Positions 2,447 to 29,465 of a stretch of 64,000 bases of DNA are shown piece after piece (the stretch's first letter is position 1; the number at the start of each line of letters is the position of its first letter). The notes beneath the pieces were generated by a model. The model saw only the letters and a list, made by a program, of their open reading frames with translations, ran no database searches and was not told the DNA's origin. The stretch lies in the IMG/VR virus record IMGVR_UViG_3300028283_000231. One strand, 5' to 3'. The DNA is from a virus (Duplodnaviria > Caudoviricetes). A program made the position numbers and the translations under genes.

Positions 2447-2947
2447 ATGGAAACAGTTAAAAATGTAACAGATCCTTACGGGGAGGAGAATTGGAGTGAC
2501 GTAAAAGAATCACCAAAGAAGAAGAAAATTGAATGGGTGCCCACTGCGGGTTTATGTTTTATGTTCTTACTCCTTGCTTTTATGGTAACTACTTGCGCTT
2601 TTCATGATAAAATGAAATATGATAATATTAAGAGAATTGAAGTAAAAATGGTTGTTACTAATGAAATTTTCAGAGATGAAAGAGAAGGTAAACAAGACGT
2701 GACTAACTTCTATCTTCGTGTAGAAAGTCCTTTTATGAAGACTCCTGAACCTGATTATTTACTGAGGTCTAAAGATTATCCAGCAGCAAGAATACATGAT
2801 ACTCTTGTTTGTTTAGTTAAATATTCAAATACTTTTAGAAAAGAATGGTATTCAAATATATCAAGATTAACTGAAAATAATATAGACGAAAGAGAGAAAA
2901 TTCTATTCAATATAGTAGGACTATCAAAGATTATAAAATCTAAATAA
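2447..2947 (+). CDS. Hypothetical membrane protein with N-terminal DPYGEExW motif
   Basis: One hydrophobic segment; DPYGEENW near the N terminus. Confidence 0.6.
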   Translation: METVKNVTDPYGEENWSDVKESPKKKKIEWVPTAGLCFMFLLLAFMVTTCAFHDKMKYDNIKRIEVKMVVTNEIFRDEREGKQDVTNFYLRVESPFMKTPEPDYLLRSKDYPAARIHDTLVCLVKYSNTFRKEWYSNISRLTENNIDEREKILFNIVGLSKIIKSK

Positions 2948-2958
2948 CATTAAAAGAT

Positions 2959-3864
2959 ATGATTGGAAGAATAAACTATGGTGGTGTAACATGGGAGCAT
3001 CTTGTTAAACCAACTAGCGCTGAATTTATAGAAATAAAAGACGCTTATAATTTTCACCCTCTCACTATGGAAGACTGTAAAACTAATAGTCTTCATCCAA
3101 AGGTTGATACATATGATGGTTACTATTTTTTAAACTTGCATTTTCCATATTTAGATAAATCTGGAACAGTAGTAGATATTAAAGAGGTAAAAATATTTTG
3201 GGGAAACAATTTTCTTGTAACTATTGGAAAAACACATTGGTTGTTTACACAAGAATTTGAAAAGGAAAAAGCTTTAGCGTCAGATAAAAGAATGGTAGTA
3301 ACAAGTTCTGATATGCTTCTCTACACTCTACTTGATAAAGTTATGAAGGCTACTCAGCAATTAGTTGATAAAGTTGACGAAGAGGTTGATAAATGTGGTA
3401 AATCTATTTTCGGTAAAAGAGCAGAAAAAATAATTGAACATATTAGTATTACTAGGAAGAATGTTATCGTGATGAATACTATGTTCAAACCACAGTTAGC
3501 TATTTTCAGTAAACTCACCAATGGAGCAATTAAAGGTTTTGCTGAAGATATGGAAAACTACTGGGGTAACATTCACGATTATTACCAGAATATATGGGAC
3601 ACAGTTGAAGACGCTGGTGAACTTATAAAGGGTTATAGTACAACATTCGACTCTTTACAGGTAAATAAAACAAACGAAGTGATGAAAATATTAGCTTTAG
3701 TTTCTTCTATTTTATTACCAATATCGTTCTTAGCTAATCTTTACGGTATGAATATTAAAATACCTTTTCAGAACCACGATCAATTTTATATGTATCTTGG
3801 TGGTTTAATGTTAGTTATGATAGTTGGAATGTTTTCGTATTTCAAATTTAAGAAATGGATGTAA
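2959..3864 (+). CDS. corA: CorA/ZntB-family Mg/Co/Zn transporter
   Basis: FHPLTMED, HPKVDTYDGYYFLNLHF, TNEVMKIL, YGMN signature and two C-terminal TM helices. Confidence 0.92.
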   Translation: MIGRINYGGVTWEHLVKPTSAEFIEIKDAYNFHPLTMEDCKTNSLHPKVDTYDGYYFLNLHFPYLDKSGTVVDIKEVKIFWGNNFLVTIGKTHWLFTQEFEKEKALASDKRMVVTSSDMLLYTLLDKVMKATQQLVDKVDEEVDKCGKSIFGKRAEKIIEHISITRKNVIVMNTMFKPQLAIFSKLTNGAIKGFAEDMENYWGNIHDYYQNIWDTVEDAGELIKGYSTTFDSLQVNKTNEVMKILALVSSILLPISFLANLYGMNIKIPFQNHDQFYMYLGGLMLVMIVGMFSYFKFKKWM

Positions 3865-3878
3865 TTATATATAGTAGA

Positions 3879-4206
3879 ATGAGAATAATTTTTATATTTT
3901 TAATAGGTATATTTTTCTTATTTGTTGGGTGTAAAAAGAAGGAACCAACAATTATACCTTTTACTTATACAAGTTTAAAAGCATCTGATTCAACTATCAG
4001 AGTGAATGAAATGACTAACATTGTTGCTGAGGCAACAGGTGATGAATTGGTTTATAAATGGAGCTACTTATGGAACATTTGTAGGTAGTGGGAATACAGT
4101 TCAGTGGACGGTTTGCCACGCTGATAATTTTATAATCACATGTGAAGTAGTAGATAAGAATAATCATTCAGATACAAAAAGTGTAACTATTAAGGTAATT
4201 AATTAA
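3879..4206 (+). pseudogene. Frameshifted PKD/Ig-like lipoprotein (pseudogene or sequence error)
   Basis: Lipobox FVGC; the frame ending ...GDELVYKW continues sensibly as ATYGTFVGSG... in the second track ORF; shift near 4070. Confidence 0.55.
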
Positions 4207-4236
4207 AATATATACAAATATGAATAAGAAAGGAGA

Positions 4237-4273
4237 GGTTTTTCGGTAAGTGTTAAAAATTAATCGAAAAACC
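4237..4273 (+). promoter_or_regulatory. 11-bp hairpin abutting the start codon at 4275
   Basis: GGTTTTTCGGT pairs with ATCGAAAAACC. Confidence 0.5.
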
Positions 4274-4274
4274 C

Positions 4275-4580
4275 ATGAGTTACAAATGTAAAGTAGAAAT
4301 GGATATTACTGATAACAGGTATGTCTATAACAGATCAAGAAAAGTTTACCTCGAACAAAAAGGTAAAATTCATTGCTCTCGCTGTGGTTATCACAGAGGA
4401 GAAAATGATGAAAGAAAATCATACGGCACCACAGGATTTTGGAGAAAGACTGGAAAGCGTCTTCGTCACCCAAACTGGAAATTGGTTTCTAAAAACAGAA
4501 AACAATGGATGAAAAAACCAATTATAAGAGTGGTTAAAAAAAGCCAATGGTTCGAGGATTATCTTAATATTGATTTTTAA
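4275..4580 (+). CDS. Small basic hypothetical protein with CxxC..H motif
   Basis: CSRCGYH, Arg/Lys/Trp-rich C terminus. Confidence 0.6.
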   Translation: MSYKCKVEMDITDNRYVYNRSRKVYLEQKGKIHCSRCGYHRGENDERKSYGTTGFWRKTGKRLRHPNWKLVSKNRKQWMKKPIIRVVKKSQWFEDYLNIDF

Positions 4581-4587
4581 GAATTAA

Positions 4588-4672
4588 GCCTGGTTCCGAT
4601 AGCGATCGATTCGACCTGTTTCGTAAACAGGAGTATGATATACCATCGTTGGTTTGAATCCAACACCAGGCT
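4588..4672 (+). tRNA. tRNA-Thr(CGT)-like gene with long variable arm and atypical D arm
   Basis: Acceptor GCCTGGT/ACCAGGC, CCTGT-TTCGTAA-ACAGG, variable hairpin GTAT-GAT-ATAC, T arm GTTGG-TTTGAAT-CCAAC. Confidence 0.75.
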
Positions 4673-4704
4673 CGAGAGTACATTAAAAAATAATAATAGA
4701 ATTA

Positions 4705-4923
4705 ATGAAATATTGTAAAGTTTGCGGTGAAGAGATTCCAGAAGGAAGAGTTAAGGCGTTACCAAACGCTGAGACCTGTGTGGAACATTCAGGAGCAAAA
4801 AAGAAGAAAGGATTTGTTGTAATTAGTAGTAAAACTACATACAGCGAATTAGATATAGTGGATGATAACACTTATAAAATGTTAAAGAAATTAGATAGAG
4901 ACGGTTGGCACGCTTGTAATTAA
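4705..4923 (+). CDS. TraR/DksA-type C4 zinc-finger protein
   Basis: CKVCGEEIPEGRVKALPNAETCVEH matches the DksA/TraR finger pattern. Confidence 0.8.
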   Translation: MKYCKVCGEEIPEGRVKALPNAETCVEHSGAKKKKGFVVISSKTTYSELDIVDDNTYKMLKKLDRDGWHACN

Positions 4924-4944
4924 TAAAAAATAAAAACAAATAAA

Positions 4945-5628
4945 ATGAAAAAGATTCAAATCGAAATCATGGCTTCCGAGGGAGGTAATGATTCAAAACT
5001 ATTAGTGGTAGATCTTATGGATATTTATATCAGATCAGCAAAAAACCAAAACTTCAATTGAAGAGTAGTTGAAGTCAAAGATGGTTTTGCTTCGATATGA
5101 ATAGAAGGTGATAGCGTAAACAAATTTTACGCAAACGAAAGTGGAGCACATTGCTTTTCGAGGATACCACCAACAGAAAGAAATGGTAGAACTCAAACAA
5201 GTATAGTTAAAGTGGCGATAATGAACCCAGAAAAAGAAGCGGGATACGTTTTGAATAGAAATGATGTAACAAAAAATTATATCAGATCTTCAAAAAAAGC
5301 GGGTGGCCAAAATTTAAACAAAGTTTCTTCTTGTGTTCAATTAATACATATTCCAACTGGTATTCAGGTTAAAGTTCAGGACACAAGAGATCAAACCAAA
5401 AATGAAATTATCGCGTGGGAAAGATTGACTCAAAAATTAAAAGTCATCGAAGACAAGAACGATCGTGAAAAAATTGATAACAAACGCAAGGATCAAATTG
5501 GAGAACATGGTAGAGGAAATAAAAGAAGAACATACAGATTGAAAGAAGATATCGTGCAAGATCATATCACTGGCAAATCATGTAGATGGAAGGATATATT
5601 GAAAGGTAAAATAGAGTTACTTTTCTAA
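4945..5628 (+). CDS. Class I peptide chain release factor homolog (RF1-like PxT, GGQ; lacks domain 1) with in-frame TGA at 5059 and 5098
   Basis: Reading from ATG 4945: EIMASEGGNDSKLLVVDLMDIYIRSA...NFN*RVVEVKDGFASI*IEG...ESGAHCFSRIPPTERNGRTQTS...KKAGGQNLNKVSSCV...RRTY; in frame with track ORF 5212-5628. Confidence 0.85.
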
Positions 5629-5784: not shown

Positions 5785-6423
5785 ATGAATTTCACAATAT
5801 ATGGATTGAAGGAGAAGGGCAATGATGAAATCAAATATATTGGTTTAACAACATCTAAATTAAGCATTAGATTCAGTAAACATTTAAGTGATAAAAAGGT
5901 TGATCATAAAACCAATTGGATAAAAAAAATTGGCAAGGATAATGTTGAAATTGTTGTTATAGAAGATGAAATATCAGATATAGATACATTACATGAAAAA
6001 GAGATATTTTATATTAATAAATATAAAAAGGAAGGCCATAATTTAACTAATATAACTAATGGTGGAGAAGGCTGGTATAATATGGTTTTCTCAGATGAAC
6101 ACAAAAAAAATATTAGTTTAAATCATGCTGATGTAAGTGGAGAAAATAATCCCATGTTTGGTAAAGAACACACTATTAATGTGAAAAATAAAATAAGGGA
6201 TTTTAGATTGAATTATAAAATTTCAGATGAAACAAAAGAAAAAATGAAGTGTAGTAAATTAGGTGAAAAAAATACTAATGTTAAATTAACATCCGATGAT
6301 GTATTGAAAATAAGACAATACGTTAATGAATACACACAAAAGGAATTAGCATCTATGTTTAATGTTAAACCTGGGGCAATTAGTAAGATAATAAATCACA
6401 CTACTTGGAAACATTTAAAATGA
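5785..6423 (+). CDS. GIY-YIG homing endonuclease with NUMOD3 and HTH
   Basis: IYGL...KYIGLT...R...H, LTNITNGGEG, GENNPMFGK, C-terminal HTH. Confidence 0.88.
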   Translation: MNFTIYGLKEKGNDEIKYIGLTTSKLSIRFSKHLSDKKVDHKTNWIKKIGKDNVEIVVIEDEISDIDTLHEKEIFYINKYKKEGHNLTNITNGGEGWYNMVFSDEHKKNISLNHADVSGENNPMFGKEHTINVKNKIRDFRLNYKISDETKEKMKCSKLGEKNTNVKLTSDDVLKIRQYVNEYTQKELASMFNVKPGAISKIINHTTWKHLK

Positions 6424-7230: not shown

Positions 7231-7562
7231 ACACAACTCTTTATAGACCAGTAAATAAAGCAGAATTGGATCTTATCATAGCAAGCGATTGGACCCAATT
7301 TCCACCACGTTTACCCGAGCAACCAATATTCTATCCAGTTCTTAGTTTAAGTTACGCTAAGAAAATAAACGAATGGAACGTAAACGCTTACGGTGAAGGG
7401 TTTATAGTGGAATTTCAAATTGATAATATGTATTTAGTTATACATAATATTGATGTTCATAATGTTGGAGATAAAGACGATAATGAATTTTGGATAAGAG
7501 CAGATCAATTAGATTCTTTCAATAAAAATATAGTAGGAAAAATAAAATTATGTATTACATAG
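7227..7562 (+). CDS. Small protein of the family annotated ADP-ribosylation/crystallin J1-associated
   Basis: TLYRPV...EL.LI..S.W..FPPRLPEQPIFYPVL, recognised family pattern. Confidence 0.65.
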   Translation: MNTTLYRPVNKAELDLIIASDWTQFPPRLPEQPIFYPVLSLSYAKKINEWNVNAYGEGFIVEFQIDNMYLVIHNIDVHNVGDKDDNEFWIRADQLDSFNKNIVGKIKLCIT

Positions 7563-8344
7563 TACAAGAAAGATTATACAGAGAAGACGAGTGGGACGAT
7601 CTTATTCACGCACTGGAAAGATTCAATCTTAATTACGAGATTGTTAAACTTATTCCATTCGTTGACGATTTTGAATTTGAGACAAAAGAAAAAAATGTCT
7701 TTTGTTTTGGTGCGCTTAAGATGGCAAGACTTGCTCCAAAGTACGGTTGGTATCCTGGAATTCTTATGACGCCTAATCACGATTTTAATGTTTATAAAGA
7801 ATATTACAAAGAAAACTTATTGAATTATGACTCAAAAATATACAGAATATCCGAAGATTTTGAATGGAACGGTGATTTCTTTGTTAGGCCTGTATTGGAC
7901 ACTAAGATTTTTAATGGAAGACCTTATGCCATGCAAGACTGGAAAAAAGAAAGCAATCGTCTCTTGTGTAACTCCAAAAGTGATAAGGATAATGGAATAA
8001 CCAACATAGTTAGCGAAGACACTCTTATACAAGTTAGTAGTCTTAAAAATATTCAAAAAGAATTTAGATTCTATATCGTTGATGGTAAGATAGCTACAGC
8101 GAGCCTTTATAAAGAAGGATATTTTGTGAGGTATAGTGATATAGTTGATCAAGGGGCTATAGATTATTGTAACGAGATGATAAAAGTGTTTCAGTTGGCT
8201 GACGCTTTTGTAATGGATATTTGTTTGACTGACGATGAGTGGAAGATAATTGAGTGTGGTTGCCTTTCGTGCGCTGGTCTCTACAAAGCTAACATACCTA
8301 AACTTCTAATGGCATTAGAAGATAAATTTAACATTGAGATATAA
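7550..8344 (+). CDS. ATP-grasp protein (DUF4343/R2K-like)
   Basis: FFVRP..DTK.FNG, EFRFYIVDGKI, FVMDIC, IIECGC.SCAGLY. Confidence 0.75.
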   Translation: MYYIVQERLYREDEWDDLIHALERFNLNYEIVKLIPFVDDFEFETKEKNVFCFGALKMARLAPKYGWYPGILMTPNHDFNVYKEYYKENLLNYDSKIYRISEDFEWNGDFFVRPVLDTKIFNGRPYAMQDWKKESNRLLCNSKSDKDNGITNIVSEDTLIQVSSLKNIQKEFRFYIVDGKIATASLYKEGYFVRYSDIVDQGAIDYCNEMIKVFQLADAFVMDICLTDDEWKIIECGCLSCAGLYKANIPKLLMALEDKFNIEI

Positions 8345-9582: not shown

Positions 9583-10284
9583 ATGGATTTTACAAAGTTT
9601 ACAGTTAAAGCAAAAACCGCAATCCAAAAGGCTAGAGAGATTGCCCAAGTCAAAGGACATAAATCTATTGAAACTTCACATATTCTTAAAGGGATTATGT
9701 TAGTTGACGATAATGTTGCTCCTTACATTCTTAAAAAGATGAATGTTGACGTTGACCTTCTTATGAAGATCGTTGATAATATTATAAAATATTATCCAAG
9801 AGATCTCATTAGTAGAGAACACTTGTCACCTTACTCAAATCAGGCATTAGATAGAGCTATCACTTATTCTCTTGAATATGGTGATGAGTTTGTTTCTGTT
9901 GAACATATTCTTATGGGTATTCTTGGTGGAACAGACGTTTTAGCTAAAGAGTTTGTAAAAGAAGGTATTACAATAGAAGGGATTAAATCTGGTTTAGAAG
10001 ATATTAGAAAAGGTGTTAAAATCACTTCTCCAGAAGCTGATATAGCAATCAACGCCACAAATAAATATACTAGAAATCTTAATGAATTGGTAAAAGCAGG
10101 CAAACTTGACCCAGTTATCGGAAGAGACGACGAAATTAAAAGAATTCTTCAAATTCTTTCAAGGAGAACAAAAAATAATCCACTTATCATAGGTGAATCG
10201 GGATGTGTAGACGGTGATACTATTATTACTATTAGAAAAATTTCAAATGATACTACACATGAAAATATAGAAATAGACTATTAA
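9583..10284 (+). CDS. clpB: ClpB-like ATPase, N-terminal fragment fused to split-intein N part
   Basis: Clp_N repeats, KLDPVIGRDDEIKRILQILSRRTKNNPLIIGESG then CVDGDT... Confidence 0.92.
   Translation: MDFTKFTVKAKTAIQKAREIAQVKGHKSIETSHILKGIMLVDDNVAPYILKKMNVDVDLLMKIVDNIIKYYPRDLISREHLSPYSNQALDRAITYSLEYGDEFVSVEHILMGILGGTDVLAKEFVKEGITIEGIKSGLEDIRKGVKITSPEADIAINATNKYTRNLNELVKAGKLDPVIGRDDEIKRILQILSRRTKNNPLIIGESGCVDGDTIITIRKISNDTTHENIEIDY
10204..10281 (+). mobile_element. Split intein N fragment, only 26 aa
   Basis: Block A CVDGDTII directly after the Walker A half GESG, stop after 26 residues. Confidence 0.85.
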
Positions 10285-10341
10285 ATTTTTATATATAACT
10301 TTATCAGGGACAGGAAAAAACCTAACCCTGATGAACTAAAT

Positions 10342-11511
10342 ATGGAAATAAATATAAAAGGTAAACAAAAATTAATATTATCTGATTTTATTGAATTTTA
10401 CGATTATGTTATTAATAATATAATTTTTGAATTGAAATTTGATAAAGATAAAAAATTAGAGCGTTTTTATGAAAATAATAATTATATAAATGGAATAAAA
10501 TTATTTAGATTGAAAATAAGATCTATGTATTATAATTTAACAACATTAAAAATTGATTATTGGTTAAGTAGAGGATGGTCATATGATGAATCTGTAAACA
10601 GAATAAAAGAAATACAATCTATTAGAAGTAATATTTCTAAAGAAAAAATGTTAACATTAAAAGAAATAGATTATAAAAAATGGTGTGAAACGCGTAACAC
10701 AAGGAAAGAATTTTATATGAAGAAGGGGTTAACAGAAGAAGAATCTGTAGATCTTTTAAAAGATAGACAAAAAACATTTTCAATAGAATCCTGTATAATT
10801 AAATATGGCGATAATGGATATGATGTGTGGAAGAATAGGCAAATTAAATGGTATAGTAAAATAAAGAATATAGATTGTGATAGAGATTCAAATTCATCTG
10901 ATTTCTATAAAAATAAATATGGTGATAATTGGATTTTTAAAGCAATTGATGATTGTTCTTTTTTAAATAAAGATTTAATTAAAAATATTATTCAAAAAAC
11001 GAATAATGATTTTGTGTTTTTCATTAAAGAATTAGATGAAAGAATAGAAATAGTAGCTTTAAACGACATTTATTTCATATTTAATTCAAAACTATTGCAA
11101 AATTATTTTGGTAAAAATAAAGAAGAATTAACTGAAATAATATTAGGCACATTAAATATAAACATAAAAGGATTTGGAAATATAAGATATTTCAACAGAC
11201 ATATATGTAGAAGTAATGGAGAATATTATATAGCTAAAAAATTAAAAGAACTTAACATAGATTATGTTTATGAGAAAAAATATCCAAATTCAAAATATGT
11301 CTGTGATTTTTATATACCAATTTTAAATCTTTACGTTGAATATATGGGTATGCTAAAAAGTAATTATATACAAGAAAATCGTCTTGACATATATTTAAAA
11401 TATAAAACTAGATATGATGATAAAGAGAAATTTTGTAAAGATAATAATATAAAATATTTATTTAATAATAATATGGTGGAAATAATAAAAAAAATAACAA
11501 ATGGAAATTAA
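10342..11511 (+). CDS. Free-standing homing endonuclease (PD-(D/E)xK/Vsr-like C terminus) between the split-intein halves
   Basis: SNGEYYIAKKL...YVYEK...CDFYIPILNLYVEYMG; N-terminal W.SRG/KYG repeats. Confidence 0.78.
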   Translation: MEINIKGKQKLILSDFIEFYDYVINNIIFELKFDKDKKLERFYENNNYINGIKLFRLKIRSMYYNLTTLKIDYWLSRGWSYDESVNRIKEIQSIRSNISKEKMLTLKEIDYKKWCETRNTRKEFYMKKGLTEEESVDLLKDRQKTFSIESCIIKYGDNGYDVWKNRQIKWYSKIKNIDCDRDSNSSDFYKNKYGDNWIFKAIDDCSFLNKDLIKNIIQKTNNDFVFFIKELDERIEIVALNDIYFIFNSKLLQNYFGKNKEELTEIILGTLNINIKGFGNIRYFNRHICRSNGEYYIAKKLKELNIDYVYEKKYPNSKYVCDFYIPILNLYVEYMGMLKSNYIQENRLDIYLKYKTRYDDKEKFCKDNNIKYLFNNNMVEIIKKITNGN

Positions 11512-11911
11512 AATTGAAGATTTTTATAATTTAATTAAAAATGATGGTGGCACTTTTGAAGTACTAACGCCAGATGGATTTAAATTAATTGGATATGTTT
11601 ATAAAAAAAATAATAAACAAATATATTCAATAAAATTAGAAAATGGTTTAATCTTGAAAGGTTCAAATGATCATCTAGTTAAAATATATACGTATAATAT
11701 TGAAGAAAACAATATTAACCCTAATATAGAAATATTAGATAACGATACATGGATTAGATTTTCTAATATTAAATATAATGATATAATATGCACTAAAATT
11801 GGAGAATTCAGTGTAGTTAAAATTGACAAGTTAAATAAAAATATAACATATGATTTAGAAGTATTGGATGATAGACACCAATATTATTCTAATGATATAA
11901 TTTCTCACAAT
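11501..11911 (+). mobile_element. Split intein C fragment, 137 aa
   Basis: Block B-like GSNDH, block F YDLEV, terminal HN followed by Thr +1. Confidence 0.85.
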
Positions 11912-13525
11912 ACTGGTAAAACTGCTGTAGCACTTGGTATAGCACACAAGATTGTTAGTGGTGACGTTCCAGATAGTCTGAAAACTAAACAAATCTATTC
12001 ACTTGACCTCACAAATATTGTATCTGGGGCTAAATATAAAGGTGAATTCGAAGAAAGACTTAAAGGCGTCTTTAACGAAATTATCGCATCCAACGGTGAG
12101 ATCATTCTTTTCATTGATGAGATTCATAACCTCATTGGAACTAACGGGGGTGAAGGTTCAATGGATGGTGCTGATATTCTTAAACCCATATTATCAAGGG
12201 GTGAGATGTTAGTTATTGGTGCTACTACTACAAAGGAGTATCATAAATATTTTGAACAAGATAAATCATTTGAGCGTAGATTTCAAACTGTTACCATTGA
12301 AGAACCAACAGTTGAAGAAGCTATTGCCATCTTAATAGGATTGAAAGGAAAATATGAAACTTTCCACAATGTAACTATTAAAGATGAAGCTGTTGTGGCT
12401 GCAGTAGAACTTTCTAAAAGATATATTTCTAATAGATTTTTACCAGATAAAGCCATTGATATTCTCGATGAGGCCTCTTCTAAATTAAAGTTGGACGCTG
12501 AAGTAAAAGAAAAAGTGGTTGACGCCGATCAAATTGCTATAGTTGTATCGGAAGTAAGTCAAATTCCTGTTAATAAATTAAAAGGCAGTGAAAAGGAAAG
12601 ACTTGTAAATCTTGAAAAAGAATTACATAAAAGGGTTATTGGACAAAATGAAGCCATCAAAGCTGTTTCAGATGCTATACGTAGAAGTAGAACAGGTCTT
12701 CAAGATCCAAAGAAACCCATCGGTTCATTCATATTCCTTGGTACCACAGGGGTTGGAAAAACAGAGCTTGCTAAGGCTCTTGCTGAATTTCTTTTCAATG
12801 ACGAAAATTCTATGGTTAGGATTGATATGTCTGAATACATGGATAAAAGCTCAGCTAGTAAACTTATTGGTTCTGCACCAGGTTACGTTGGTTATGATGA
12901 GGGTGGACAACTCACTGAAGCAGTTAAGAGGAAACCTTATAGTGTAGTTCTCCTTGATGAAATCGAGAAGTCCCACCCAGACGTCTTTAATACACTTTTA
13001 CAGGTATTGGACGACGGTAGATTAACAGACAATAAAGGTTATCTTGTTGATTTCAAGAATACTATTATAGTAATGACTTCAAATCTCGGTTCTAGCATCA
13101 TTCAGTCTAATATGCAAGGAATGACTGATGAGACAAGGGATGAAGTTATTAAGAAAACAAAAGATGAAGTTATCGCGATGTTAAGGAGAACAATTAGACC
13201 AGAACTTCTTAATCGTATTGATGAGACTATTGTATTCCAACCTCTTACAAAATCTGAAATTCTTGATATTGTTAAGATGCAGTTTAATGGTATAAAGAAG
13301 ATGTTAAAGAAGAATGGTGTGGATATGACGGCATCTGATGAAGCTTTAAAACAGATTGCTGAGTGGGGATATGATCCTCAGTTTGGTGCAAGACCTGTTA
13401 AGAGGGTAATTCAGGAAAAAGTTATCAATGTACTTTCTGGTTTAATGTTGGAAGATAAGGTATCGAAAGATAATGCAATATTTATTGATGTAAAGGACGG
13501 TCAGTTATTATTTATAAATAAATAG
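11501..13525 (+). CDS. clpB: Split-intein C part fused to the ClpB-like C-terminal fragment (rest of NBD1 and NBD2)
   Basis: ...YYSNDIISHN/TGKT, LFIDEIH, GTTGVGKTELAK, RIDMSEY, LLDEIEKSHPDV, FGARP. Confidence 0.93.
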   Translation: MEIKIEDFYNLIKNDGGTFEVLTPDGFKLIGYVYKKNNKQIYSIKLENGLILKGSNDHLVKIYTYNIEENNINPNIEILDNDTWIRFSNIKYNDIICTKIGEFSVVKIDKLNKNITYDLEVLDDRHQYYSNDIISHNTGKTAVALGIAHKIVSGDVPDSLKTKQIYSLDLTNIVSGAKYKGEFEERLKGVFNEIIASNGEIILFIDEIHNLIGTNGGEGSMDGADILKPILSRGEMLVIGATTTKEYHKYFEQDKSFERRFQTVTIEEPTVEEAIAILIGLKGKYETFHNVTIKDEAVVAAVELSKRYISNRFLPDKAIDILDEASSKLKLDAEVKEKVVDADQIAIVVSEVSQIPVNKLKGSEKERLVNLEKELHKRVIGQNEAIKAVSDAIRRSRTGLQDPKKPIGSFIFLGTTGVGKTELAKALAEFLFNDENSMVRIDMSEYMDKSSASKLIGSAPGYVGYDEGGQLTEAVKRKPYSVVLLDEIEKSHPDVFNTLLQVLDDGRLTDNKGYLVDFKNTIIVMTSNLGSSIIQSNMQGMTDETRDEVIKKTKDEVIAMLRRTIRPELLNRIDETIVFQPLTKSEILDIVKMQFNGIKKMLKKNGVDMTASDEALKQIAEWGYDPQFGARPVKRVIQEKVINVLSGLMLEDKVSKDNAIFIDVKDGQLLFINK

Positions 13526-13527: not shown

Positions 13528-13749
13528 ATGAATTTACTTTGTTTAATATTTGGTCATAAGAAGATTGTAAGAAATTGGTACCCAACTGATCCGATAACAT
13601 CGTTGGGATGTACAAGATGTAGGAAAACTCTTGATCAGAGACCGAATCCTGGTTATATAGCAGATTGGTATTATTCGGGATTAAGGCAAACTTTTAAAAG
13701 GGTATTTTCAGCAAATGATCCATATGGTGAAGAAATATGGGACGAATAA
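13528..13749 (+). CDS. Small hypothetical protein, C..FGH/CxxC, ending in DPYGEEIW
   Basis: ORF track and motif. Confidence 0.6.
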   Translation: MNLLCLIFGHKKIVRNWYPTDPITSLGCTRCRKTLDQRPNPGYIADWYYSGLRQTFKRVFSANDPYGEEIWDE

Positions 13750-13810: not shown

Positions 13811-14728
13811 ATGTCCAATAACAACGGCTCAATGGTAGCAGTATTTTATGCACTGGGTGGTAATGCTCTTATTGCCGCTATCAAATTTACTGCTGCAATA
13901 TTAACAAGTAGTGCTGCTATGATGGCTGAATCTATACATTCAGCAGCAGATACTCTCAATCAAGTATTTCTTTTAATTGGTAATAAAAGATCTCAAAAAG
14001 AACCAACAGAAGCTCATCCATTTGGTCACGAAAGAGAATCTTTCTATTGGGCTTTATTGGTAGCTGGTCTTTTATTTGTTGGAGGTGGTATTTTCTCTAT
14101 ATATGAGGGTATTCATAAGATTTACAATCCTGAACCAATACACAATATATATTTGATATTTGTAATATTATTCGTTTCAATAGGAATTGAAGCCAAATCT
14201 TTCTCTGTTGCTTATAAAGAATTCAAAAAGAAATCAAAAGAAAGTTTCTTTAAGGGTATTAAGAATTCAACCGATACTAATCTAATTGTAGTTTTACTTG
14301 AAGACTTCGCTGCTCTTGCTGGTCTTATTGTTGTTGTGATTACAACAGTATTATCTTTATTTAATCCAATTTTTGACGCTTTTGGTTCGATTTGTGTTGG
14401 ATTATTGTTATTATCCATTTCTCACACTCTGGCTAACGAAATTAGAAAACTCATTGTGGGTGAAAGCATGCCAAGAGAATCAAGAGCTAAGATTAAAGGT
14501 ATAATTCATCAATATGATATAGTTGAACATATTAACGGTGTTAAAACTATGGCTATTGGTAATAATAAATATTTAGTTGTTATATCAGTAGATATCGACG
14601 ATGATGCCACTGGATATGATATTGAAGATCACTTTGAACAAATTAAAATTGATATTTTCAAGGAGTTGCCAGAAGTCAAAGTTATAACTATCGATATTCA
14701 GGATCCAAATAAAAGTACACTAATGTAA
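13811..14728 (+). CDS. Cation diffusion facilitator (CDF) metal transporter
   Basis: S.AMMAESIHS.AD, HPFGH.RE, LLEDFAAL, six TM segments and C-terminal dimerisation domain. Confidence 0.92.
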   Translation: MSNNNGSMVAVFYALGGNALIAAIKFTAAILTSSAAMMAESIHSAADTLNQVFLLIGNKRSQKEPTEAHPFGHERESFYWALLVAGLLFVGGGIFSIYEGIHKIYNPEPIHNIYLIFVILFVSIGIEAKSFSVAYKEFKKKSKESFFKGIKNSTDTNLIVVLLEDFAALAGLIVVVITTVLSLFNPIFDAFGSICVGLLLLSISHTLANEIRKLIVGESMPRESRAKIKGIIHQYDIVEHINGVKTMAIGNNKYLVVISVDIDDDATGYDIEDHFEQIKIDIFKELPEVKVITIDIQDPNKSTLM

Positions 14729-23999: not shown

Positions 24000-24843
24000 T
24001 GTGATTGATTCTGAATTAAAGGCTTATCTAATTGGACTTTTTTATGCTGATGCTTATCTATCAGATCGTGTTTTACAATTATATTTGTCTATAAAAGACA
24101 AAGAGTATGTTGAAAAATTAGCAAATATATTAGGAGTTAAAACACATAATAAAAAATTATCTATTGGATTTAATATATGCAACAAAAAAATTGTAGATTC
24201 CTTGTATAAAATGGGATTTATTAAAAGGAAATCATACCAAAGAGATGATATAGTCTTTAAAAATATACCAGATGAATTAAAAAGACACTTTATTAGGGGG
24301 TATTTTGATGGTGATGGAACAATATACATATCTAAATATAAAAAGAAAAATGTTGATTGGAAGGAAAGTATTAAATATGGAATTGGTTTTATATCAATAA
24401 ATAAAGAATTATTGAATAGTATTAAAAATTACTTCTCTGTATCATTAAGTTTATCAGATAAAAAACTGAGAAGTGAAAACTCTGGAAGATTTATAAGTGA
24501 TATTAACGATGAAGATCCATATGGTGAAGAACAATGGGAAAACAACGAAATTAAATATATTAGACTGATTTATAGTGGAAACATTATTTGTAAAAAAATA
24601 TTAGATTTTTTATATGAGGGATCTACTATCTATATGGATAGAAAACATGATAAATATAAAGAGATAAGTATATTTAAACCGAAAAATTATCATTTTCATA
24701 AAAGAAGTAATAAATGGAGATATGTGTATGATGATAATGGATTAAAGAAGTATAAATTGTTTAAAACAGAAGATGAAGTTAAAAACTTTATAAAAAATAA
24801 AATTAAAAATTATGAAAGCTTTACTAGCAAAATGGTTGGATAG
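23983..24843 (+). CDS. Two-motif LAGLIDADG homing endonuclease with AP2-like C terminus
   Basis: AYLIGLFYADA and HFIRGYFDGDG; overlaps both DUF2828 fragments. Confidence 0.88.
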   Translation: MKINFDVIDSELKAYLIGLFYADAYLSDRVLQLYLSIKDKEYVEKLANILGVKTHNKKLSIGFNICNKKIVDSLYKMGFIKRKSYQRDDIVFKNIPDELKRHFIRGYFDGDGTIYISKYKKKNVDWKESIKYGIGFISINKELLNSIKNYFSVSLSLSDKKLRSENSGRFISDINDEDPYGEEQWENNEIKYIRLIYSGNIICKKILDFLYEGSTIYMDRKHDKYKEISIFKPKNYHFHKRSNKWRYVYDDNGLKKYKLFKTEDEVKNFIKNKIKNYESFTSKMVG

Positions 24844-25846
24844 AAAAGGTCCAAAGGCAAATAAAATTAGAAAATATCTTGGTTTAACACCAAAGGATTA
24901 CAGAAAGATGATAGTATCGCTATCACAGACTGTTGAGCAGTTAATGTGCGCAAAGCAATTTGAAGGCATTAACTACGAACACGTTCCTTCTGTAGCTATG
25001 AACAAGTACAGAAAAGCTTTCTACAAGAAAGATTCTGGTAGGTTCGCAGAATACATCGCAAATGTAAAGAGTGGTGTTGCCAAGATGTGCGCAAGCGCTA
25101 TCTACCCATACCAACTTTACGACGCTTTCCTAAGAGCTAGGACAGAATTCGATAATTTGGCTATTGAGGCTCAATGGTATTCGTTGCCAAACTACATGGA
25201 AGGATCAACCGAGAGGTTGCTTCCAATGGTTGATACATCGGGTTCTATGGAATTCTATGGTGGATTACCAGCAAGAGCAGGTTGGTCACTTGGTCTTTAT
25301 ATTTCTGAAAGAAACGAGAGCATTTTCAAGGACGCTTTCATGACTTTCCATACTCATCCAAAGATGATGTACTTACAGGGTAGCATCGCCGAAAGGGTTC
25401 GTGCTATCAGAGGAGTAGAATGGAAAGGTACTACAAACCTTGAAGCAGCGTTTGAATTATTGCTTAACAAAGCAATTGAGAACAAGATTTCTGAAGCAGA
25501 AATGCCAACAGTTATCTTGATCTTATCAGATATGCAGTTTGACCCATCGAAAGCTTGCTACAACGCAAACGCTTACGAAATGATGAAAGCTCATTACGCT
25601 GCAGCTGGATATAAGATTCCAAGAATCATCTTCTGGAACCTTAGAGCAGCAGAGGATAAAGTAACAGCATCAGCATTTGACGAAAATGTTGGTCTTGTAT
25701 CTGGTTTCAGCCCAAGTGGTTTGAAGGCTATTCTTCAAGGAGAAGAAATTCAAGATGAAGTAAAGGTCGAACCAAAGAAAGAAACTCCTTACGAATTGAT
25801 GATGAAAGTCATTGACGGTGAGAGATACGCAGCAGTTACTATATAA
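24812..25846 (+). CDS. DUF2828 protein, C-terminal fragment with vWA domain
   Basis: LLAKWL, INYEHVPSVAM..Y.KAF, MIDAS VDTSGSM, ILSDMQFD, IIFWNL. Confidence 0.88.
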   Translation: MKALLAKWLDRKGPKANKIRKYLGLTPKDYRKMIVSLSQTVEQLMCAKQFEGINYEHVPSVAMNKYRKAFYKKDSGRFAEYIANVKSGVAKMCASAIYPYQLYDAFLRARTEFDNLAIEAQWYSLPNYMEGSTERLLPMVDTSGSMEFYGGLPARAGWSLGLYISERNESIFKDAFMTFHTHPKMMYLQGSIAERVRAIRGVEWKGTTNLEAAFELLLNKAIENKISEAEMPTVILILSDMQFDPSKACYNANAYEMMKAHYAAAGYKIPRIIFWNLRAAEDKVTASAFDENVGLVSGFSPSGLKAILQGEEIQDEVKVEPKKETPYELMMKVIDGERYAAVTI

Positions 25847-25926: not shown

Positions 25927-25954
25927 AAAAAACCCAGTTTATCTGGGTTTTTTT
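25927..25954. terminator. Bidirectional intrinsic terminator
   Basis: AAAAAACCCAG-TTTAT-CTGGGTTTTTTT between convergent genes. Confidence 0.85.
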
Positions 25955-26700: not shown

Positions 26701-26722
26701 AAAAATTTTTGTTTTATATATT

Positions 26723-26751
26723 AAAAAACCCAGTCCTTTCGGGCTGGGTTT
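26723..26751 (-). terminator. Intrinsic terminator
   Basis: Minus strand AAACCCAGCC-CGAAA-GGACTGGG-TTTTTT downstream of ORF 26795-27622. Confidence 0.8.
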
Positions 26752-26794
26752 ATCATTCACTCTGTTACGTTCAAAGAAGAGGCTTTACAGAGCA

Positions 26795-27622
26795 TCATAA
26801 GTTTTCAAGAATATTCTTCAATCTTGATGGATCAATAGGTCTTACATCTGGATTTTCCTCACCAATAAGAGAATAATTTAAATTGAGAATATCAATAATA
26901 ATAAATTTAGGAGATTCAACTCCTTTTTCTCTCTCAGGCACGTAAACTATGAAATTATATTCGTTAAGTTTATCTGCTATTTTCTTTTCGTAGGGAATTT
27001 GAAATTTATATTTATTTTCTTTCGAATATTTTCTTTCTGGACCAGGATCTGCCATAGGTTGTTCAACTGGTTGCTCAACTGGTTGTTCTACTGGTTCTTC
27101 AGCTGCTTCTTTTAAAAAAGACTTATAATTTTTTAATACACTCTTTTCCATGATTTCTCTTTTGTTTTTTGGCTCTTCTTCATCGAAGATTAATTCGTCC
27201 TCATCCTCATCGTAATCAACTTTGTCTGTTCCTAATTCATCCTCTTCGTAGTCTTCATCGTCATCAACTTCATCATAGTCATCTTCACTATTCATAAAAG
27301 ATTCAATATCCTTTTTAGCTTTTTCTCTATTATTTATACCCTTTAATTCATCGTAAAGATTTATAGCGTCCTCTTCATCTGCTATACCAGAAGCTACTAA
27401 TTTATCGTAATATTCATCGTCCTGAGCAAGATGATCCATTGCCACTTCCGTAGCTATATCTGGGTTATCAGTATGTTCACGTTCGATTTTTGTTCCAATT
27501 TCTATATCATCTGGATTGAAATCATCTGGTGTTTTATCATCAGCTCTCCCACCTTTTAAATGATCTTTCCACTTTCTGTTTCCGAAATCTGTAAAATCTA
27601 ATATAACTTTGCCCTTTTTCAT
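26795..27622 (-). CDS. DUF5661-containing phage protein with acidic linker and EQPV repeats
   Basis: IEIGTKIEREHTDNPDIATEVAMDHL..D.EYYDKL. Confidence 0.75.
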   Translation of the reverse strand: MKKGKVILDFTDFGNRKWKDHLKGGRADDKTPDDFNPDDIEIGTKIEREHTDNPDIATEVAMDHLAQDDEYYDKLVASGIADEEDAINLYDELKGINNREKAKKDIESFMNSEDDYDEVDDDEDYEEDELGTDKVDYDEDEDELIFDEEEPKNKREIMEKSVLKNYKSFLKEAAEEPVEQPVEQPVEQPMADPGPERKYSKENKYKFQIPYEKKIADKLNEYNFIVYVPEREKGVESPKFIIIDILNLNYSLIGEENPDVRPIDPSRLKNILENL

Positions 27623-27665
27623 AATATTATATATTAAATTGTTTTATTAATGTTTTTTCTTTTTG

Positions 27666-28352
27666 TTAACGAACTTCATATAATTCATTCTTCTTTTCAT
27701 TATATCTAAAAAACTTACATTTTAATTTATCAATAATTTCATTTTGCCTGATAATATCCCTATTTTTCAAATTTCCGTTACTATCATAATGTTTTGGTTC
27801 ATCGTATTCAATTGCTATGTTGTTATTTTTATCATACGCGTCAATAAAATATCCTAGATCAGATATATATAATTCCCCACCGTTTAAAGCATGTTGCAAA
27901 TTCCAATGGTTTGTTTTTGATAATTCATCAAAATATTTACAAGCGTTTATATTATGCATTGGGCAAACTCCACCATTTTTGTTTTGAATATAGTTTATTT
28001 TAGACAATCTCATTTTCTTTTTTGTTTCATTCGACGCCTTTTTACCTATCATTTTTAATCTCATTTTTTCTATAGATCCTGGAGTGTGCGCATTTTTTGT
28101 AAAATTTTCGATGTTTGATCTCAATCTTTCTTTATATTCGTCACTGTGAGTTTCACCAAACATTCCGTTATTCATTCCTGAATTTTTTTCTGATATTTTT
28201 TGTTTAGTTAATTCAGATGTTTCATGCCCCTTTAAAGATGAACTAATTTTTTCTTTAGTATCATCAGATAATTTTCTACCAATCATCCATTTTCCAATTC
28301 CTTTATTTTTACAGGATTCACTTATTTTCCTTTTGGTTTCTTCTGAATGCAT
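27666..28352 (-). CDS. NUMOD3 plus Vsr-like homing endonuclease
   Basis: HSEETKRKIS repeats; FIDAYDKNNNIAIEYDEPKH. Confidence 0.82.
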   Translation of the reverse strand: MHSEETKRKISESCKNKGIGKWMIGRKLSDDTKEKISSSLKGHETSELTKQKISEKNSGMNNGMFGETHSDEYKERLRSNIENFTKNAHTPGSIEKMRLKMIGKKASNETKKKMRLSKINYIQNKNGGVCPMHNINACKYFDELSKTNHWNLQHALNGGELYISDLGYFIDAYDKNNNIAIEYDEPKHYDSNGNLKNRDIIRQNEIIDKLKCKFFRYNEKKNELYEVR

Positions 28353-28383
28353 GCCTCTATATATTAATTATTTTTATCCGTTT

Positions 28384-28614
28384 TTATTCTTTCGATGGTA
28401 AGTCCAATAAATATAATATTTTAGTGTAATCCTTATCCCTATAAACATACGATTGTAACCTCTCACTCCAACTCACAAGTTGTTGAATTTTAGAATGATC
28501 CTTTCTTTTTATTTCAAAATATAGTCCGCTAGGTAGTCCAACGAGTTCCATAATTTCATCGGGATCGTATTCGTCTTCGAGATAACCTATATGTTCATTA
28601 AAACTTTTTATCAT
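28384..28614 (-). CDS. Small hypothetical protein with leader-like N terminus
   Basis: MIKSFNEHI. Confidence 0.55.
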   Translation of the reverse strand: MIKSFNEHIGYLEDEYDPDEIMELVGLPSGLYFEIKRKDHSKIQQLVSWSERLQSYVYRDKDYTKILYLLDLPSKE

Positions 28615-29465
28615 TTCTTTAATTTAAAATATCTTGTACTATAATAAGTATTATCACCTTTAACCCAAACAGCGTCGCCACTTGGTTTAGTTATATCAAA
28701 TATAGTATATTCTTTTCCTATTTCCAGTCTTCTGCCACCACCGCCTTCTTTATTTGTACAAATAATAATATCACCGTCTTCCCAAAGAGAAGGATCATTT
28801 AAATCTATATCTGGTTTATCCCATACTTCTTCACCGTAGGGATCTAAGTCTTCTACGTTTTCTTTAATCATTCCAGTATTTATAAATATATGTTTTGGCC
28901 ACCATATAGGTATTATACCTTCATATTTTATAATTTTATCATCTGATTCAAATTCGTCTAATGCTTTGCTTTTACCGTAATATTTAAAAAAATCAGCTTT
29001 AATTAAATTCGCTTTTCCTCTAACTTCAATAAAATATCCATCTTCATCTGGACTTATATTAATAATTTCATACTCTTCTCCCTCACTAAGTTCAATTCCT
29101 TCTGTTGTACATGTTGTAGTACATCTGATAATACTTCCAATTTTTTCAATGTCTTCATCACTCCACCATTCTTCACCGTAAGGATCTAAATCTTCTACGT
29201 TCTCTTTAATATATGTATCCTTTTTAAATCTTTTCATCATCCACCAACCACCTAAACCTTTTAGATTTATATGATTATGATGTACAGAGATAACCTCGTA
29301 ATCAACTCCTAATTTGATTTTATTTGGAAAATCCAATCCACTATCGTCTATACAAATAACTATATCTCCCTCATGAATCCTATCTTCATTATCGTTCCAA
29401 ACCTCTTCACCGTAAGGAACAAGATCATTATTCTCTTTAATATATGTATGAAATTTCTTTATCAT
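28611..29465 (-). CDS. Three-module repeat protein (KE-N..DPYGEExW plus SH3-like beta module)
   Basis: Three PYGEE.W copies, each followed by GD.(V/I).C...G.(D/E)Y.(V/I). Confidence 0.7.
   Translation of the reverse strand: MIKKFHTYIKENNDLVPYGEEVWNDNEDRIHEGDIVICIDDSGLDFPNKIKLGVDYEVISVHHNHINLKGLGGWWMMKRFKKDTYIKENVEDLDPYGEEWWSDEDIEKIGSIIRCTTTCTTEGIELSEGEEYEIINISPDEDGYFIEVRGKANLIKADFFKYYGKSKALDEFESDDKIIKYEGIIPIWWPKHIFINTGMIKENVEDLDPYGEEVWDKPDIDLNDPSLWEDGDIIICTNKEGGGGRRLEIGKEYTIFDITKPSGDAVWVKGDNTYYSTRYFKLKK

What the first reader, a model, noticed from the sequence alone, without database searches (positions are those of the whole stretch)
2471..29420. Mobile peptide tag DPYGEExW shared by four unrelated proteins
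Seen: six copies at 2471-2494 (N terminus of a membrane protein), 13717-13740 (C terminus of a small Zn protein), 24514-24537 (inserted in a loop of the LAGLIDADG endonuclease) and 28821-28844, 29163-29186, 29397-29420 (three modules of ORF 28611; the last reads VPYGEEVW). Codons vary synonymously (CCT/CCA/CCC, TAC/TAT, GGG/GGT, GAG/GAA), implying selection on the peptide. In ORF 28611 it follows IKE-N each time. Inference: a short linear docking or sorting signal, for example for capsid packaging, protease recruitment or a phage compartment, that even a selfish endonuclease has captured.
Basis: partly seen in the sequence, partly recalled or inferred. Interest (0 to 1): 0.75.

Follow-up and report, generated by a model that had tools for sequence, protein, structure and literature searches.

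The report
Portable peptide tag of a megaphage
The eight-residue peptide DPYGEExW really is shared by unrelated proteins of this giant freshwater phage; its 735-kb relative carries it on about one predicted protein in twelve, usually at the very C-terminal end, so it looks like a lineage-specific address or docking label whose reader is still unknown.

Summary
Observation confirmed and greatly extended. All six copies sit where stated, in the sense frame of real ORFs, with none expected by chance. The 108-kb contig holds a seventh copy and a degenerate eighth. The 735-kb Mahaphage LR756501 has 103 copies in 89 ORFs, 29 IMG/VR contigs hold 373, and more than 120 metagenome stretches carry it.

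185,579 prokaryote genomes show only the number of single hits expected by chance. A 634-kb Mahaphage has none. With the tag masked, the carriers are unrelated, and orthologs about 50% identical keep it.

Forty-one of the 103 LR756501 copies end the protein (3.4 expected). In ORF 28611 the tags lie in low-confidence linkers before SH3-like barrels. In the LAGLIDADG enzyme the tag is a 17-residue insertion.

The tag co-occurs with an N-terminal leader like the T4 capsid targeting sequence, and it is enriched on mini-proteins copied from portal, protease, capsid and sheath genes. The tag-free Mahaphage has its own, different C-terminal tag on 53 unrelated proteins.

Best reading: a portable docking or sorting peptide, most likely for the assembling head.

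The scan had noted these tags before on this same genome (e1-5338897, e1-5338890).

The parts
2471..2494 (+). Tag copy 1 (DPYGEENW), residues 9-16 of the membrane protein
2447..2947 (+). Carrier 1: a 166-aa protein with an N-terminal tag, a KKKK stretch, then a hydrophobic span at about residues 30-52. The tag is inferred to be cytoplasmic. The LR756501 ortholog (52% identical) keeps the tag.
13696..13746 (+). Extended C-terminal tail KRVFSAN-DPYGEEIW-DE, which is tag copy 2 at 13717-13740. The protein ends 2 residues after the W.
13528..13749 (+). Carrier 2: a 73-aa Cys-rich DUF1660-like protein directly downstream of the ClpB-like gene. Its LR756501 ortholog is 51% identical and has a 13-residue linker indel, but the RVFSxxDPYGEEIWxE tail is conserved.
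24496..24546 (+). A 17-residue insertion SDINDE-DPYGEEQW-ENN holding tag copy 3 (24514-24537). It is absent from three homologous LAGLIDADG proteins.
23983..24843 (+). Carrier 3: a double-motif LAGLIDADG homing endonuclease (PF14528, PF00961)
29397..29420 (-). Tag copy 4 (VPYGEEVW), module 1 of ORF 28611-29465
29163..29186 (-). Tag copy 5 (DPYGEEWW), module 2
28821..28844 (-). Tag copy 6 (DPYGEEVW), module 3
28611..29465 (-). Carrier 4: a 284-aa protein made of three fused modules. Each module has a leader-like helix ending YIKE|N or MIKE|N, then the tag, then a small beta-barrel. Barrels 1 and 2 are modelled with pLDDT 82-90 and are SH3-like. All three tag segments have pLDDT below 50.
29430..29465 (-). 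N-terminal leader MIKKFHTYIKEN of ORF 28611. This second lineage-wide tag matches the T4 CTS at that sequence's mapped residues.
30224..30256 (-). The same kind of leader (MVKKFDKFVRE) on the neighbouring DeoC-like aldolase ORF 29465-30256, which has no DPYGEExW

Best explanation
DPYGEExW is a portable short linear docking or sorting peptide, specific to one sub-lineage of Mahaphage-type megaphages. Its fuller form is [KR][KR][VI][FY][ST]xx-D-P-Y-G-E-E-x-W-[DE]-[DE]. It is displayed on flexible, cytoplasm-facing ends or linkers of otherwise unrelated accessory proteins, so that many proteins can be recognised by one common partner. Shown: selection on the peptide, portability, conservation in orthologs, a strong preference for the extreme C-terminus, restriction to the lineage, and absence from cells. 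Inferred: a single reader exists. Further inferred, with about 0.3 probability on its own: the destination is the assembling head. In that reading the tag is a second encapsidation signal working beside a T4 CTS-like N-terminal leader. Proteins such as ORF 28611 would then be loaded into the prohead and cut at YIKE|N-type sites by the T4-type prohead protease into separately tagged SH3-like pieces.
For: Not chance and not a DNA repeat: (reversed-pattern controls gave 0). There are 103 copies in 89 ORFs of LR756501. The 94 carriers fall into 89 BLAST clusters. Four of the 5 carriers on this contig have LR756501 orthologs that keep the tag at 51-57% overall identity, and a 30%-identical paralog keeps it too. 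C-terminal placement is 41 observed against 3.4 expected, P 2e-33. The tags in ORF 28611 lie in segments with pLDDT below 50, between confident barrels. The tag-to-domain linker varies in length between orthologs. The 596 Gb of prokaryote genomes gave 72 single hits, close to my estimate of about 69 by chance. There are 0 copies in the 634-kb Mahaphage LR745206, and only LR756501/03 among 50,697 GenBank phages carry it. Link to the head: a leader with [FY]xx[FY][IV]xE co-occurs with the tag (24/54 against 62/950, OR 11.5, P 2e-13). That pattern coincides with T4 CTS residues 4 and 7 (targeting) and 8 and 10 (processing) (PMC9026906; PMC8442874). The lineage has a T4-type portal, protease and MCP. 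The extension after the protease domain repeats YIAE[NH] about 10 times (13 repeats counting YV/YL variants). Eight of 19 mini-proteins copied from portal, protease, MCP or sheath carry the tag (OR 8.6, P 7e-5). Parallel case: LR745206 has a different C-terminal tag on 53 unrelated proteins (53 observed against 5.2 expected at the end).
Against: No partner has been identified. Nearly half the copies (48 of 110) are internal. At least 8 of 94 carriers have membrane spans. Carriers also include a homing endonuclease, a CCA-adding enzyme, a methyltransferase and a GNAT, which are not obvious capsid cargo. The main portal, protease, MCP and sheath genes are untagged. A cut-site-like [FY][IVL]xE just upstream of the tag is not generally enriched (6/110 against 2.6% background, P 0.07). 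In LR745206 the leader and the C-terminal tag do not co-occur (0 of 53). All evidence linking the tag to the head is correlative and comes mostly from the relative LR756501, not from this window.
Confidence: 0.5

Rival explanations
1. Degron or adaptor-binding element. The tag marks accessory proteins, many of them small, for an AAA+ unfoldase or protease, giving timed clearance or unfolding and translocation. This would resemble the SspB-binding part of the ssrA tag. The unfoldase could be phage-encoded (ClpB-like) or a host enzyme (Clp, Lon or FtsH).
For: Placement at termini or in linkers suits engagement by an unfoldase. A tagged Zn protein sits directly downstream of a ClpB-like AAA+ gene on this contig and in LR756501. 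Membrane carriers with cytoplasmic tails would suit FtsH. Many carriers lie in arrays of small genes.
Against: Clp_N is absent from 29 tag-rich IMG/VR contigs totalling about 2.4 Mb. No ClpP was found on this contig or in LR756501. A relative with a 72%-identical Clp has neither the Zn protein nor any tag in 14 kb. The last residues of the tag are variable and acidic, unlike known C-terminal degrons.
Confidence: 0.12
2. Site of a post-translational modification. The invariant Y-G-E-E-x-W would be the acceptor and recognition element of a phage enzyme, for example the R2K-clade ATP-grasp ligase encoded at 7550-8344. The chemistry would be amino-acid ligation to Glu or side-chain cross-linking, as in tubulin tails or graspetides.
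For: An R2K ATP-grasp gene lies next to the clp gene and the tagged Zn protein on this contig and in LR756501. R2K enzymes are predicted to be protein-modifying peptide ligases found in phages (PMC4431377). R2K occurs in 3 of 29 tag-rich fragments, which is compatible with one copy per large genome.
Against: The only evidence is gene neighbourhood. R2K also occurs in a relative's locus without tags. A contig rated complete with 37 tags lacks R2K. No Ser, Thr or Lys partner residue is conserved in the N-terminal class.
Confidence: 0.07
3. No separate reader. The tag is a self-contained structural or self-associating element, such as a small hairpin or an acidic-aromatic 'sticker'. It would cap domains or make tagged proteins associate with each other or with basic partners, with multi-tag proteins acting as cross-linkers.
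For: DPxG is a turn-forming sequence. The flanks are basic upstream and acidic downstream. Some proteins carry 3-6 tags alternating with SH3-like barrels.
Against: AlphaFold gives no confident structure or packing for the tag segments. Strongly acidic tags should repel one another. The extreme invariance of 7 residues across unrelated contexts suits a fixed pocket better than loose association.
Confidence: 0.1
4. Footprint of a DNA-level process, such as a mobile in-frame mini-element or a recombination joint, or a translational-coupling signal for the next gene, with no function for the peptide.
For: Codon usage in the tag is biased towards CCT TAC GGT. Genes ending in the tag are packed tightly against the next gene (median gap 1.5 nt against 12.5). 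The tag of the homing endonuclease and one LR756501 tag are near-identical over about 33 nt.
Against: All copies are in one frame and one orientation. All synonymous codons occur, and related contigs prefer TAT where LR756501 prefers TAC. DNA near-matches that fail to encode the tag are in-frame peptide variants, not decayed or out-of-frame copies. Spacing to the next start ranges from -35 to +92 nt. I estimate the 33-nt identity has about a 0.14 probability by chance.
Confidence: 0.03

Closest known systems
Phage T4 capsid targeting sequence (CTS, MKTYQEFIAE) on internal proteins IPI-III and Alt
   Same: A short peptide shared by otherwise unrelated proteins of a phage with a T4-type head. 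The lineage's separate N-terminal leader matches the CTS at its mapped residues (aromatic, aromatic+3, Ile+4, Glu+6), and that leader co-occurs with DPYGEExW.
   Different: DPYGEExW itself has no sequence likeness to the CTS, is mostly C-terminal or internal, and carries no I-x-E cut site. Packaging is unproven. About 86 proteins carry it, against a handful in T4.
Encapsulin cargo-loading (targeting) peptides
   Same: Short peptides, mostly C-terminal, on flexible linkers. They are shared by unrelated cargo proteins and bind the interior of an HK97-fold shell (my knowledge of the family).
   Different: The sequence differs: encapsulin peptides are Gly/Ser/Leu-rich, not acidic-aromatic. Many copies here are internal or multiple. 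No shell binding has been tested.
C-terminal capsid-binding tails shared by scaffold and maturation protease (herpesviruses, HK97)
   Same: A tail at the C-terminal end brings the protease or scaffold into the procapsid (my knowledge). Here a protease-domain paralog and a protein carrying scaffold-like repeats both end in the tag.
   Different: The main protease-scaffold ORF is untagged, and most carriers are not morphogenetic proteins.
ssrA tag with its SspB-binding segment, and other terminal degrons
   Same: A terminal, unstructured, acidic-aromatic recognition peptide that can be appended to any protein.
   Different: No cognate adaptor or protease co-occurs with the tag. The tag is genome-encoded on hundreds of genes, not added during translation.
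Dockerin-cohesin, and W-acidic motifs that recruit cargo in eukaryotes
   Same: Many unrelated proteins carry one common module or motif that plugs into a shared scaffold. The EExW[DE] part resembles W-acidic motifs (my knowledge).
   Different: Dockerins are folded domains of about 70 aa. No cohesin-like or TPR-like reader has been found here.

Membership tests
T4-type capsid targeting sequence | N-terminal position within about the first 10 residues | tested here: not met
   The tag is at the extreme C-terminus in 41 of 103 LR756501 copies and internal in most of the rest. It is never at residues 1-7.
T4-type capsid targeting sequence | Sequence pattern aromatic-x-x-aromatic-Ile-x-Glu, with protease cleavage after the Glu | tested here: not met
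   DPYGEExW lacks the pattern. The co-occurring leader M[IV]KK[FY]xx[FY][IV]xE does have it.
T4-type capsid targeting sequence | The phage has a T4-type prohead protease, portal and gp23-like capsid protein | tested here: met
   In LR756501: PF07068 at 82.9 bits, phrog_213 portal at 1.7e-66, phrog_207 protease at 4.9e-27. The head genes are not on the 108-kb contig of this window.
T4-type capsid targeting sequence | Tagged proteins are found inside heads, and the tag suffices to package a reporter | not testable with these tools
   Needs virion proteomics or a packaging assay.
Encapsulin-type cargo-loading peptide | A short terminal peptide on a flexible linker, shared by unrelated cargo | tested here: met
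Encapsulin-type cargo-loading peptide | Binds the inner face of an HK97-fold shell protein | not tested
LR756501 proteins cannot be handed to the folding tools.
Terminal degron of an AAA+ protease system | A cognate unfoldase or adaptor co-occurs with the tagged substrates | tested here: not met
   Clp_N occurs in only 2 of 31 tag-bearing records, and ClpP in none of the two records checked (this contig and LR756501). Host enzymes were not tested.
In-frame mobile DNA mini-element (e.g. Rickettsia palindromic elements) | Conservation at the DNA level, with copies in any frame, in either orientation and between genes | tested here: not met
SH3-like peptide-binding domain as reader of the tag | The barrel binds the tag in cis or in trans | tested here: inconclusive
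   The barrels are SH3-like. The monomer model does not dock the tags. The trans prediction gave no verdict.

The most novel reading that the evidence does not exclude
Mahaphage-type megaphages run a proteome-wide peptide 'postcode' system. Lineage-specific C-terminal tags (DPYGEExW in the LR756501 lineage, [IL]RDxK[IL]xx[IL]L in LR745206) and a T4 CTS-like N-terminal leader together mark roughly 10-15% of all proteins. The marked proteins include LRR and SH3-like paralog arrays, tRNA-acting enzymes and copied fragments of head and tail proteins. They would be delivered to one destination, most likely the giant prohead, so that a large and diverse protein cargo is injected with the DNA.
Probability: 0.3. 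Interest if true: 0.9.

Novelty: new variant of a known kind. Interest (0 to 1): 0.8.

Why it matters
Most genes of huge phages have no known function. A peptide label shared by about 9% of a 735-kb phage's proteins groups about 86 such orphans into one pathway and gives a handle for finding its hub, by peptide pull-down or in-silico screening. If the destination is the head, the tag lists the proteins that a megaphage injects into its host. It would also be a natural, very short tag for loading foreign proteins into large capsids. A related megaphage uses a different tag in the same position, which suggests a general system with co-evolving tag and reader. I found no description of the motif in the searchable literature.

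Tried and rejected
1. Complex prediction of ORF 28611 residues 1-86 (leader, tag and SH3-like barrel) with the tagged Zn protein gave no verdict: score 0.09 against a mark of 0.32, and the controls were not run. I do not count this either way.

2. This lead came from the tagged Zn protein lying downstream of clp. I set it aside as a general reader because Clp_N is missing from 29 tag-rich contigs and the synteny is lost in a 72%-identical relative.

3. R2K ATP-grasp as the writer. The only evidence is gene neighbourhood, so I kept it as a low-odds rival.

4. DNA repeat or mobile element: rejected.

5. RBS or coupling signal for the next gene: rejected because the spacing varies.

6. A duplication at the clp split was my first reading. 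It was wrong; the interruption is an intein.

7. My early label of ORF 11501-13525 as a ribonucleotide reductase was wrong. It is a ClpB-like AAA+ protein.

8. My first impression that the true sheath, capsid protein and protease are tagged was wrong. The tagged proteins are small paralogous fragments of them.

9. The AlphaFold model of the LAGLIDADG protein was too poor (mean pLDDT 54, 4-row alignment) to place the tag in a loop structurally. The alignment gap is the evidence for an insertion.

10. Sequence searches for ORF 28611 and the Zn protein found 2 and 0 relatives.

11. A cut-site motif just upstream of the tag is not generally enriched.

12. Literature searches for the motif found nothing relevant.
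Full report
OBSERVATION. The degenerate DNA pattern for PYGEExW occurs 6 times in the window and 0.00 times in 100 dinucleotide-preserving shuffles. The window belongs to a 108,427-bp, 29.8% G+C virus contig, which IMG/VR classes as a provirus and CheckV estimates at 50% complete. That contig has a fifth carrier outside the window, at contig 95591-96385, with one full and one degenerate copy (AAYGEEDW). An HMM built from 318 distinct instances finds nothing else on the contig.

THE CARRIERS IN THE WINDOW.
- ORF 2447-2947 is a 166-aa protein. The tag is at residues 9-16, followed by KKKK and a hydrophobic span, so the tag should face the cytoplasm. That orientation is an inference from the positive-inside rule.
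- ORF 13528-13749 is a 73-aa Cys-rich DUF1660-like protein that ends KRVFSAN-DPYGEEIW-DE.
- ORF 23983-24843 is a double-motif LAGLIDADG endonuclease. Its closest homologs align along the protein but lack a 17-residue segment exactly at SDINDE-DPYGEEQW-ENN, so the tag is an insertion. These homologs are an IMG/VR ORF at 31% identity, a second IMG/VR ORF, and one in LR756501. A structure model was too weak to add anything.
- ORF 28611-29465 consists of three fused modules, each made of a leader-like segment ending IKE|N, the tag, and a small barrel. AlphaFold models barrels 1 and 2 at pLDDT 82-90, while all three tag segments fall below 50. The barrels match SH3 domains, for example Abl SH3 with TM 0.75 and rmsd 2.3 Å over 58 columns. 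Foldseek E-values are weak, 5e-4 at best.

A TRAIT OF THE LINEAGE.
- A ClpB-like gene in the window is 89.6% identical in DNA to LR756501.1, a 735,411-bp uncultured phage. I take this record to be the 735-kb Mahaphage with a predicted Bacteroidetes host described in PMC7162821.
- LR756501 holds 103 copies of the pattern and 0 of the reversed control. They lie in 89 ORFs, or 86 of about 1004 non-overlapping predicted genes.
- Twenty-nine IMG/VR contigs hold 373 copies, again with 0 controls. Twenty-six of them have two or more copies, and some are overlapping assemblies.
- In contrast, 185,579 prokaryote genomes (596 Gb) gave 72 stretches with one hit each. My estimate for chance, assuming equal base frequencies, is about 69.
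- The 634,780-bp Mahaphage LR745206 has none.
- A tblastn search of 50,697 GenBank phage records found only LR756501 and its duplicate record.

ANATOMY OF THE TAG.
- Across 318 distinct instances, D, P, Y, G, E, E and W are 98-100% invariant. The position before D is I, L or V; x is mostly D, N or E; and the three residues after W are mostly acidic.
- In LR756501, 41 of 103 copies end the protein, with 0-4 (mostly 2) residues after W. A uniform distribution would give 3.4 (P 2e-33).
- The C-terminal copies usually follow [KR][KR][VI][FY][ST]xx.
- Another set sits 8-27 residues from the N-terminus, behind a leader such as MIKKFKIFE. The rest are internal, often between modules.
- The flanks are rich in charge, basic upstream and acidic downstream.
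- At least 8 of 94 carriers have membrane spans.

SELECTION ON THE PEPTIDE.
- All synonymous codons occur, but CCT, TAC and GGT are over-used relative to the background. Related contigs prefer TAT where LR756501 prefers TAC.
- DNA near-matches that do not encode the tag are in-frame variants inside ORFs, such as SYGEEEW, PYCEEDW and PYAEELW. They are not decayed or out-of-frame copies.
- With the tag masked, the 94 carriers form 89 BLAST clusters, of which 85 are singletons.
- Four of the five carriers on this contig have LR756501 orthologs at 51-57% identity (67% for the N-terminal module of ORF 28611) that keep the tag, and a 30%-identical paralog keeps it as well.
- The Zn-protein pair is only 51% identical, while its neighbours are 91-97% identical. 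The pair differs by a 13-residue indel in the linker, yet the tail is intact.

WHAT IS TAGGED. Most carriers are orphans: only a few of the 86 LR756501 ORFs and 135 IMG/VR ORFs scanned match any Pfam family. Named carriers include a CCA-adding enzyme, other nucleotidyltransferases, a methyltransferase, a GNAT, a deaminase, an HD protein and DUF7919. IMG/VR contigs also hold tandem arrays of LRR proteins that start with the leader plus the tag.

LINKS TO HEAD ASSEMBLY.
(a) Leader. M[IV]KK[FY]xx[FY][IV]xE heads 54 LR756501 genes. Twenty-four of these also carry DPYGEExW, against 62 of the other 950 genes (OR 11.5, P 2e-13). On this contig the figure is 2 of 7 (P 0.018). The conserved positions coincide with T4 CTS (MKTYQEFIAE) residues 4 and 7, mapped for targeting, and 8 and 10, mapped for processing (PMC8442874; PMC9026906).
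(b) Head genes. LR756501 has a T4-type portal, prohead protease and capsid protein. The extension after the protease domain carries about 13 tandem 14-residue repeats, most reading YIAE[NH].
(c) Copied fragments. LR756501 has 19 mini-ORFs that are paralogous fragments of its portal, protease/extension, capsid protein or sheath. Eight of them carry the tag, against 78 of 997 other genes (OR 8.6, P 7e-5). One of the eight combines scaffold-like repeats with a C-terminal tag.
(d) Parallel case. The tag-free LR745206 has its own C-terminal tag, [IL]RDxK[IL]xx[IL]L. Fifty-three of its 63 matches lie within 8 residues of the end (5.2 expected), and all 53 are on mutually unrelated proteins. LR745206 also has its own leader, MK[YH]LK, on 72 proteins. 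LR756501 has 13 proteins ending RT[KE]LID[KE]xL.

These are correlations. They make a common sorting or docking function likely and point to the head, but they do not show binding or packaging.

EVIDENCE AGAINST THE HEAD READING.
- Membrane carriers and a DNA endonuclease are odd cargo.
- Half the copies are internal.
- The main structural genes are untagged.
- Cut-site motifs next to the tag are not generally enriched.
- In LR745206 the leader and the C-terminal tag exclude each other (0 of 53).

OTHER READERS CONSIDERED. The tagged Zn protein follows a ClpB-like gene and an R2K ATP-grasp gene on this contig and in LR756501. However, Clp_N is absent from the 29 tag-rich contigs and no ClpP was found. 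A relative with a 72%-identical Clp has neither the Zn protein nor any tag within 14 kb. R2K is present in 5 of 31 records, and its predicted protein-ligase role (PMC4431377) keeps a modification reading alive at low odds. A prediction of the SH3-like module with the Zn protein gave no verdict.

VERDICT. The docking or sorting interpretation is the best available (about 0.5), with the assembling head as the most likely destination (about 0.3). The reader protein remains unidentified. The scan had already noted the motif on this stretch (e1-5338897). Another agent, working elsewhere on the same genome, reached a similar reading of two tags plus a protease cut site (e1-5338890). I reached the CTS comparison before reading that note, and I tested its main points here.

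Noticed in passing
window 9583-13525 (IntN 10204-10281; ORF 10342-11511; IntC 11501-11911): The ClpB-like AAA+ gene is interrupted in its Walker A loop by a naturally split intein. LR756501 reads GESG|VGKT without interruption. Here the first ORF continues CVDGDT... for 26 residues and stops, a free-standing 389-aa ORF of no known family follows, and the next ORF starts with 137 residues ending SHN|TGKT (Pfam Intein_splicing positions 40-155, E 0.0019). The very short N-fragment and long C-fragment are an unusual split.
   Followed up: partly
window 9583-13525; LR756501 352512-354770: The phage Clp protein is closest to Bacteroidota and Methanoregula ClpB (about 50% identity in the N-domain). 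It is about 120 residues shorter (744 aa against about 865), so it probably lacks the middle coiled-coil domain. No ClpP gene was found on this contig or in LR756501.
   Followed up: partly
window 29430-29465, 30224-30256; contig-wide: A second lineage-wide peptide: the N-terminal leader M[IV]KK[FY]xx[FY][IV]xE heads 7 genes of this contig and 54 of LR756501. It matches the T4 capsid targeting sequence at that sequence's four functionally mapped residues. LR745206 uses the variant MK[YH]LK..F.ES on 72 genes.
   Followed up: partly
LR745206.1 (loci L388-L419): This 634-kb Mahaphage lacks DPYGEExW, but 53 mutually unrelated proteins end in a different tag, [IL]RDxK[IL]xx[IL]L (53 of 63 matches within 8 residues of the end, 5.2 expected). 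LR756501 has 13 proteins ending RT[KE]LID[KE]xL.
   Followed up: partly
LR756501.1, e.g. 11314-11850, 48028-48549, 145891-146127, 552409-552918, 553796-554236, 619760-620383: Nineteen small ORFs are paralogous fragments (31-85% identical) of the phage's own portal, prohead protease/extension, major capsid protein and tail sheath. Eight of them carry the DPYGEExW tag. Their role is unknown.
   Followed up: partly
LR756501.1 73913-76336 (L035:13913-16336): The prohead protease ORF (807 aa) carries about 13 tandem 14-residue repeats after the protease domain, most with YIAE[NH]. They look like a built-in scaffold with many protease cut sites. LR745206 has the same design.
   Followed up: no
IMG/VR loci L156, L151, L118, L106 and others: Tandem arrays of 3-5 paralogous leucine-rich-repeat proteins (LRR_4, E as low as 2e-105), each starting with the leader plus DPYGEExW.
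   Followed up: partly
window 1367-2227, 5785-6423, 21036-21941, 23983-24843, 27666-28352: A dense set of homing-endonuclease-like genes within 28 kb: DUF559, GIY-YIG+NUMOD3, GIY-YIG, LAGLIDADG and NUMOD3. Only the LAGLIDADG gene carries the tag.
   Followed up: no
window 2959-3864, 7550-8344, 13811-14728, 18199-19395, 22272-23312, 24812-25846: Auxiliary genes: a CorA Mg2+ channel, an R2K-clade ATP-grasp, a cation-efflux (CDF) transporter, adenylosuccinate synthetase, an RtcB RNA ligase and a DUF2828/DUF7788 protein.
   Followed up: no
window 24466-24555 vs LR756501 about 577440-577530: The tag of the LAGLIDADG gene and that of an unrelated 111-aa LR756501 protein agree in about 32 of 33 nt, including the rare x = Gln codon. 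By my estimate this is not significant (P about 0.14), but it might mark a short patch transfer.
   Followed up: partly
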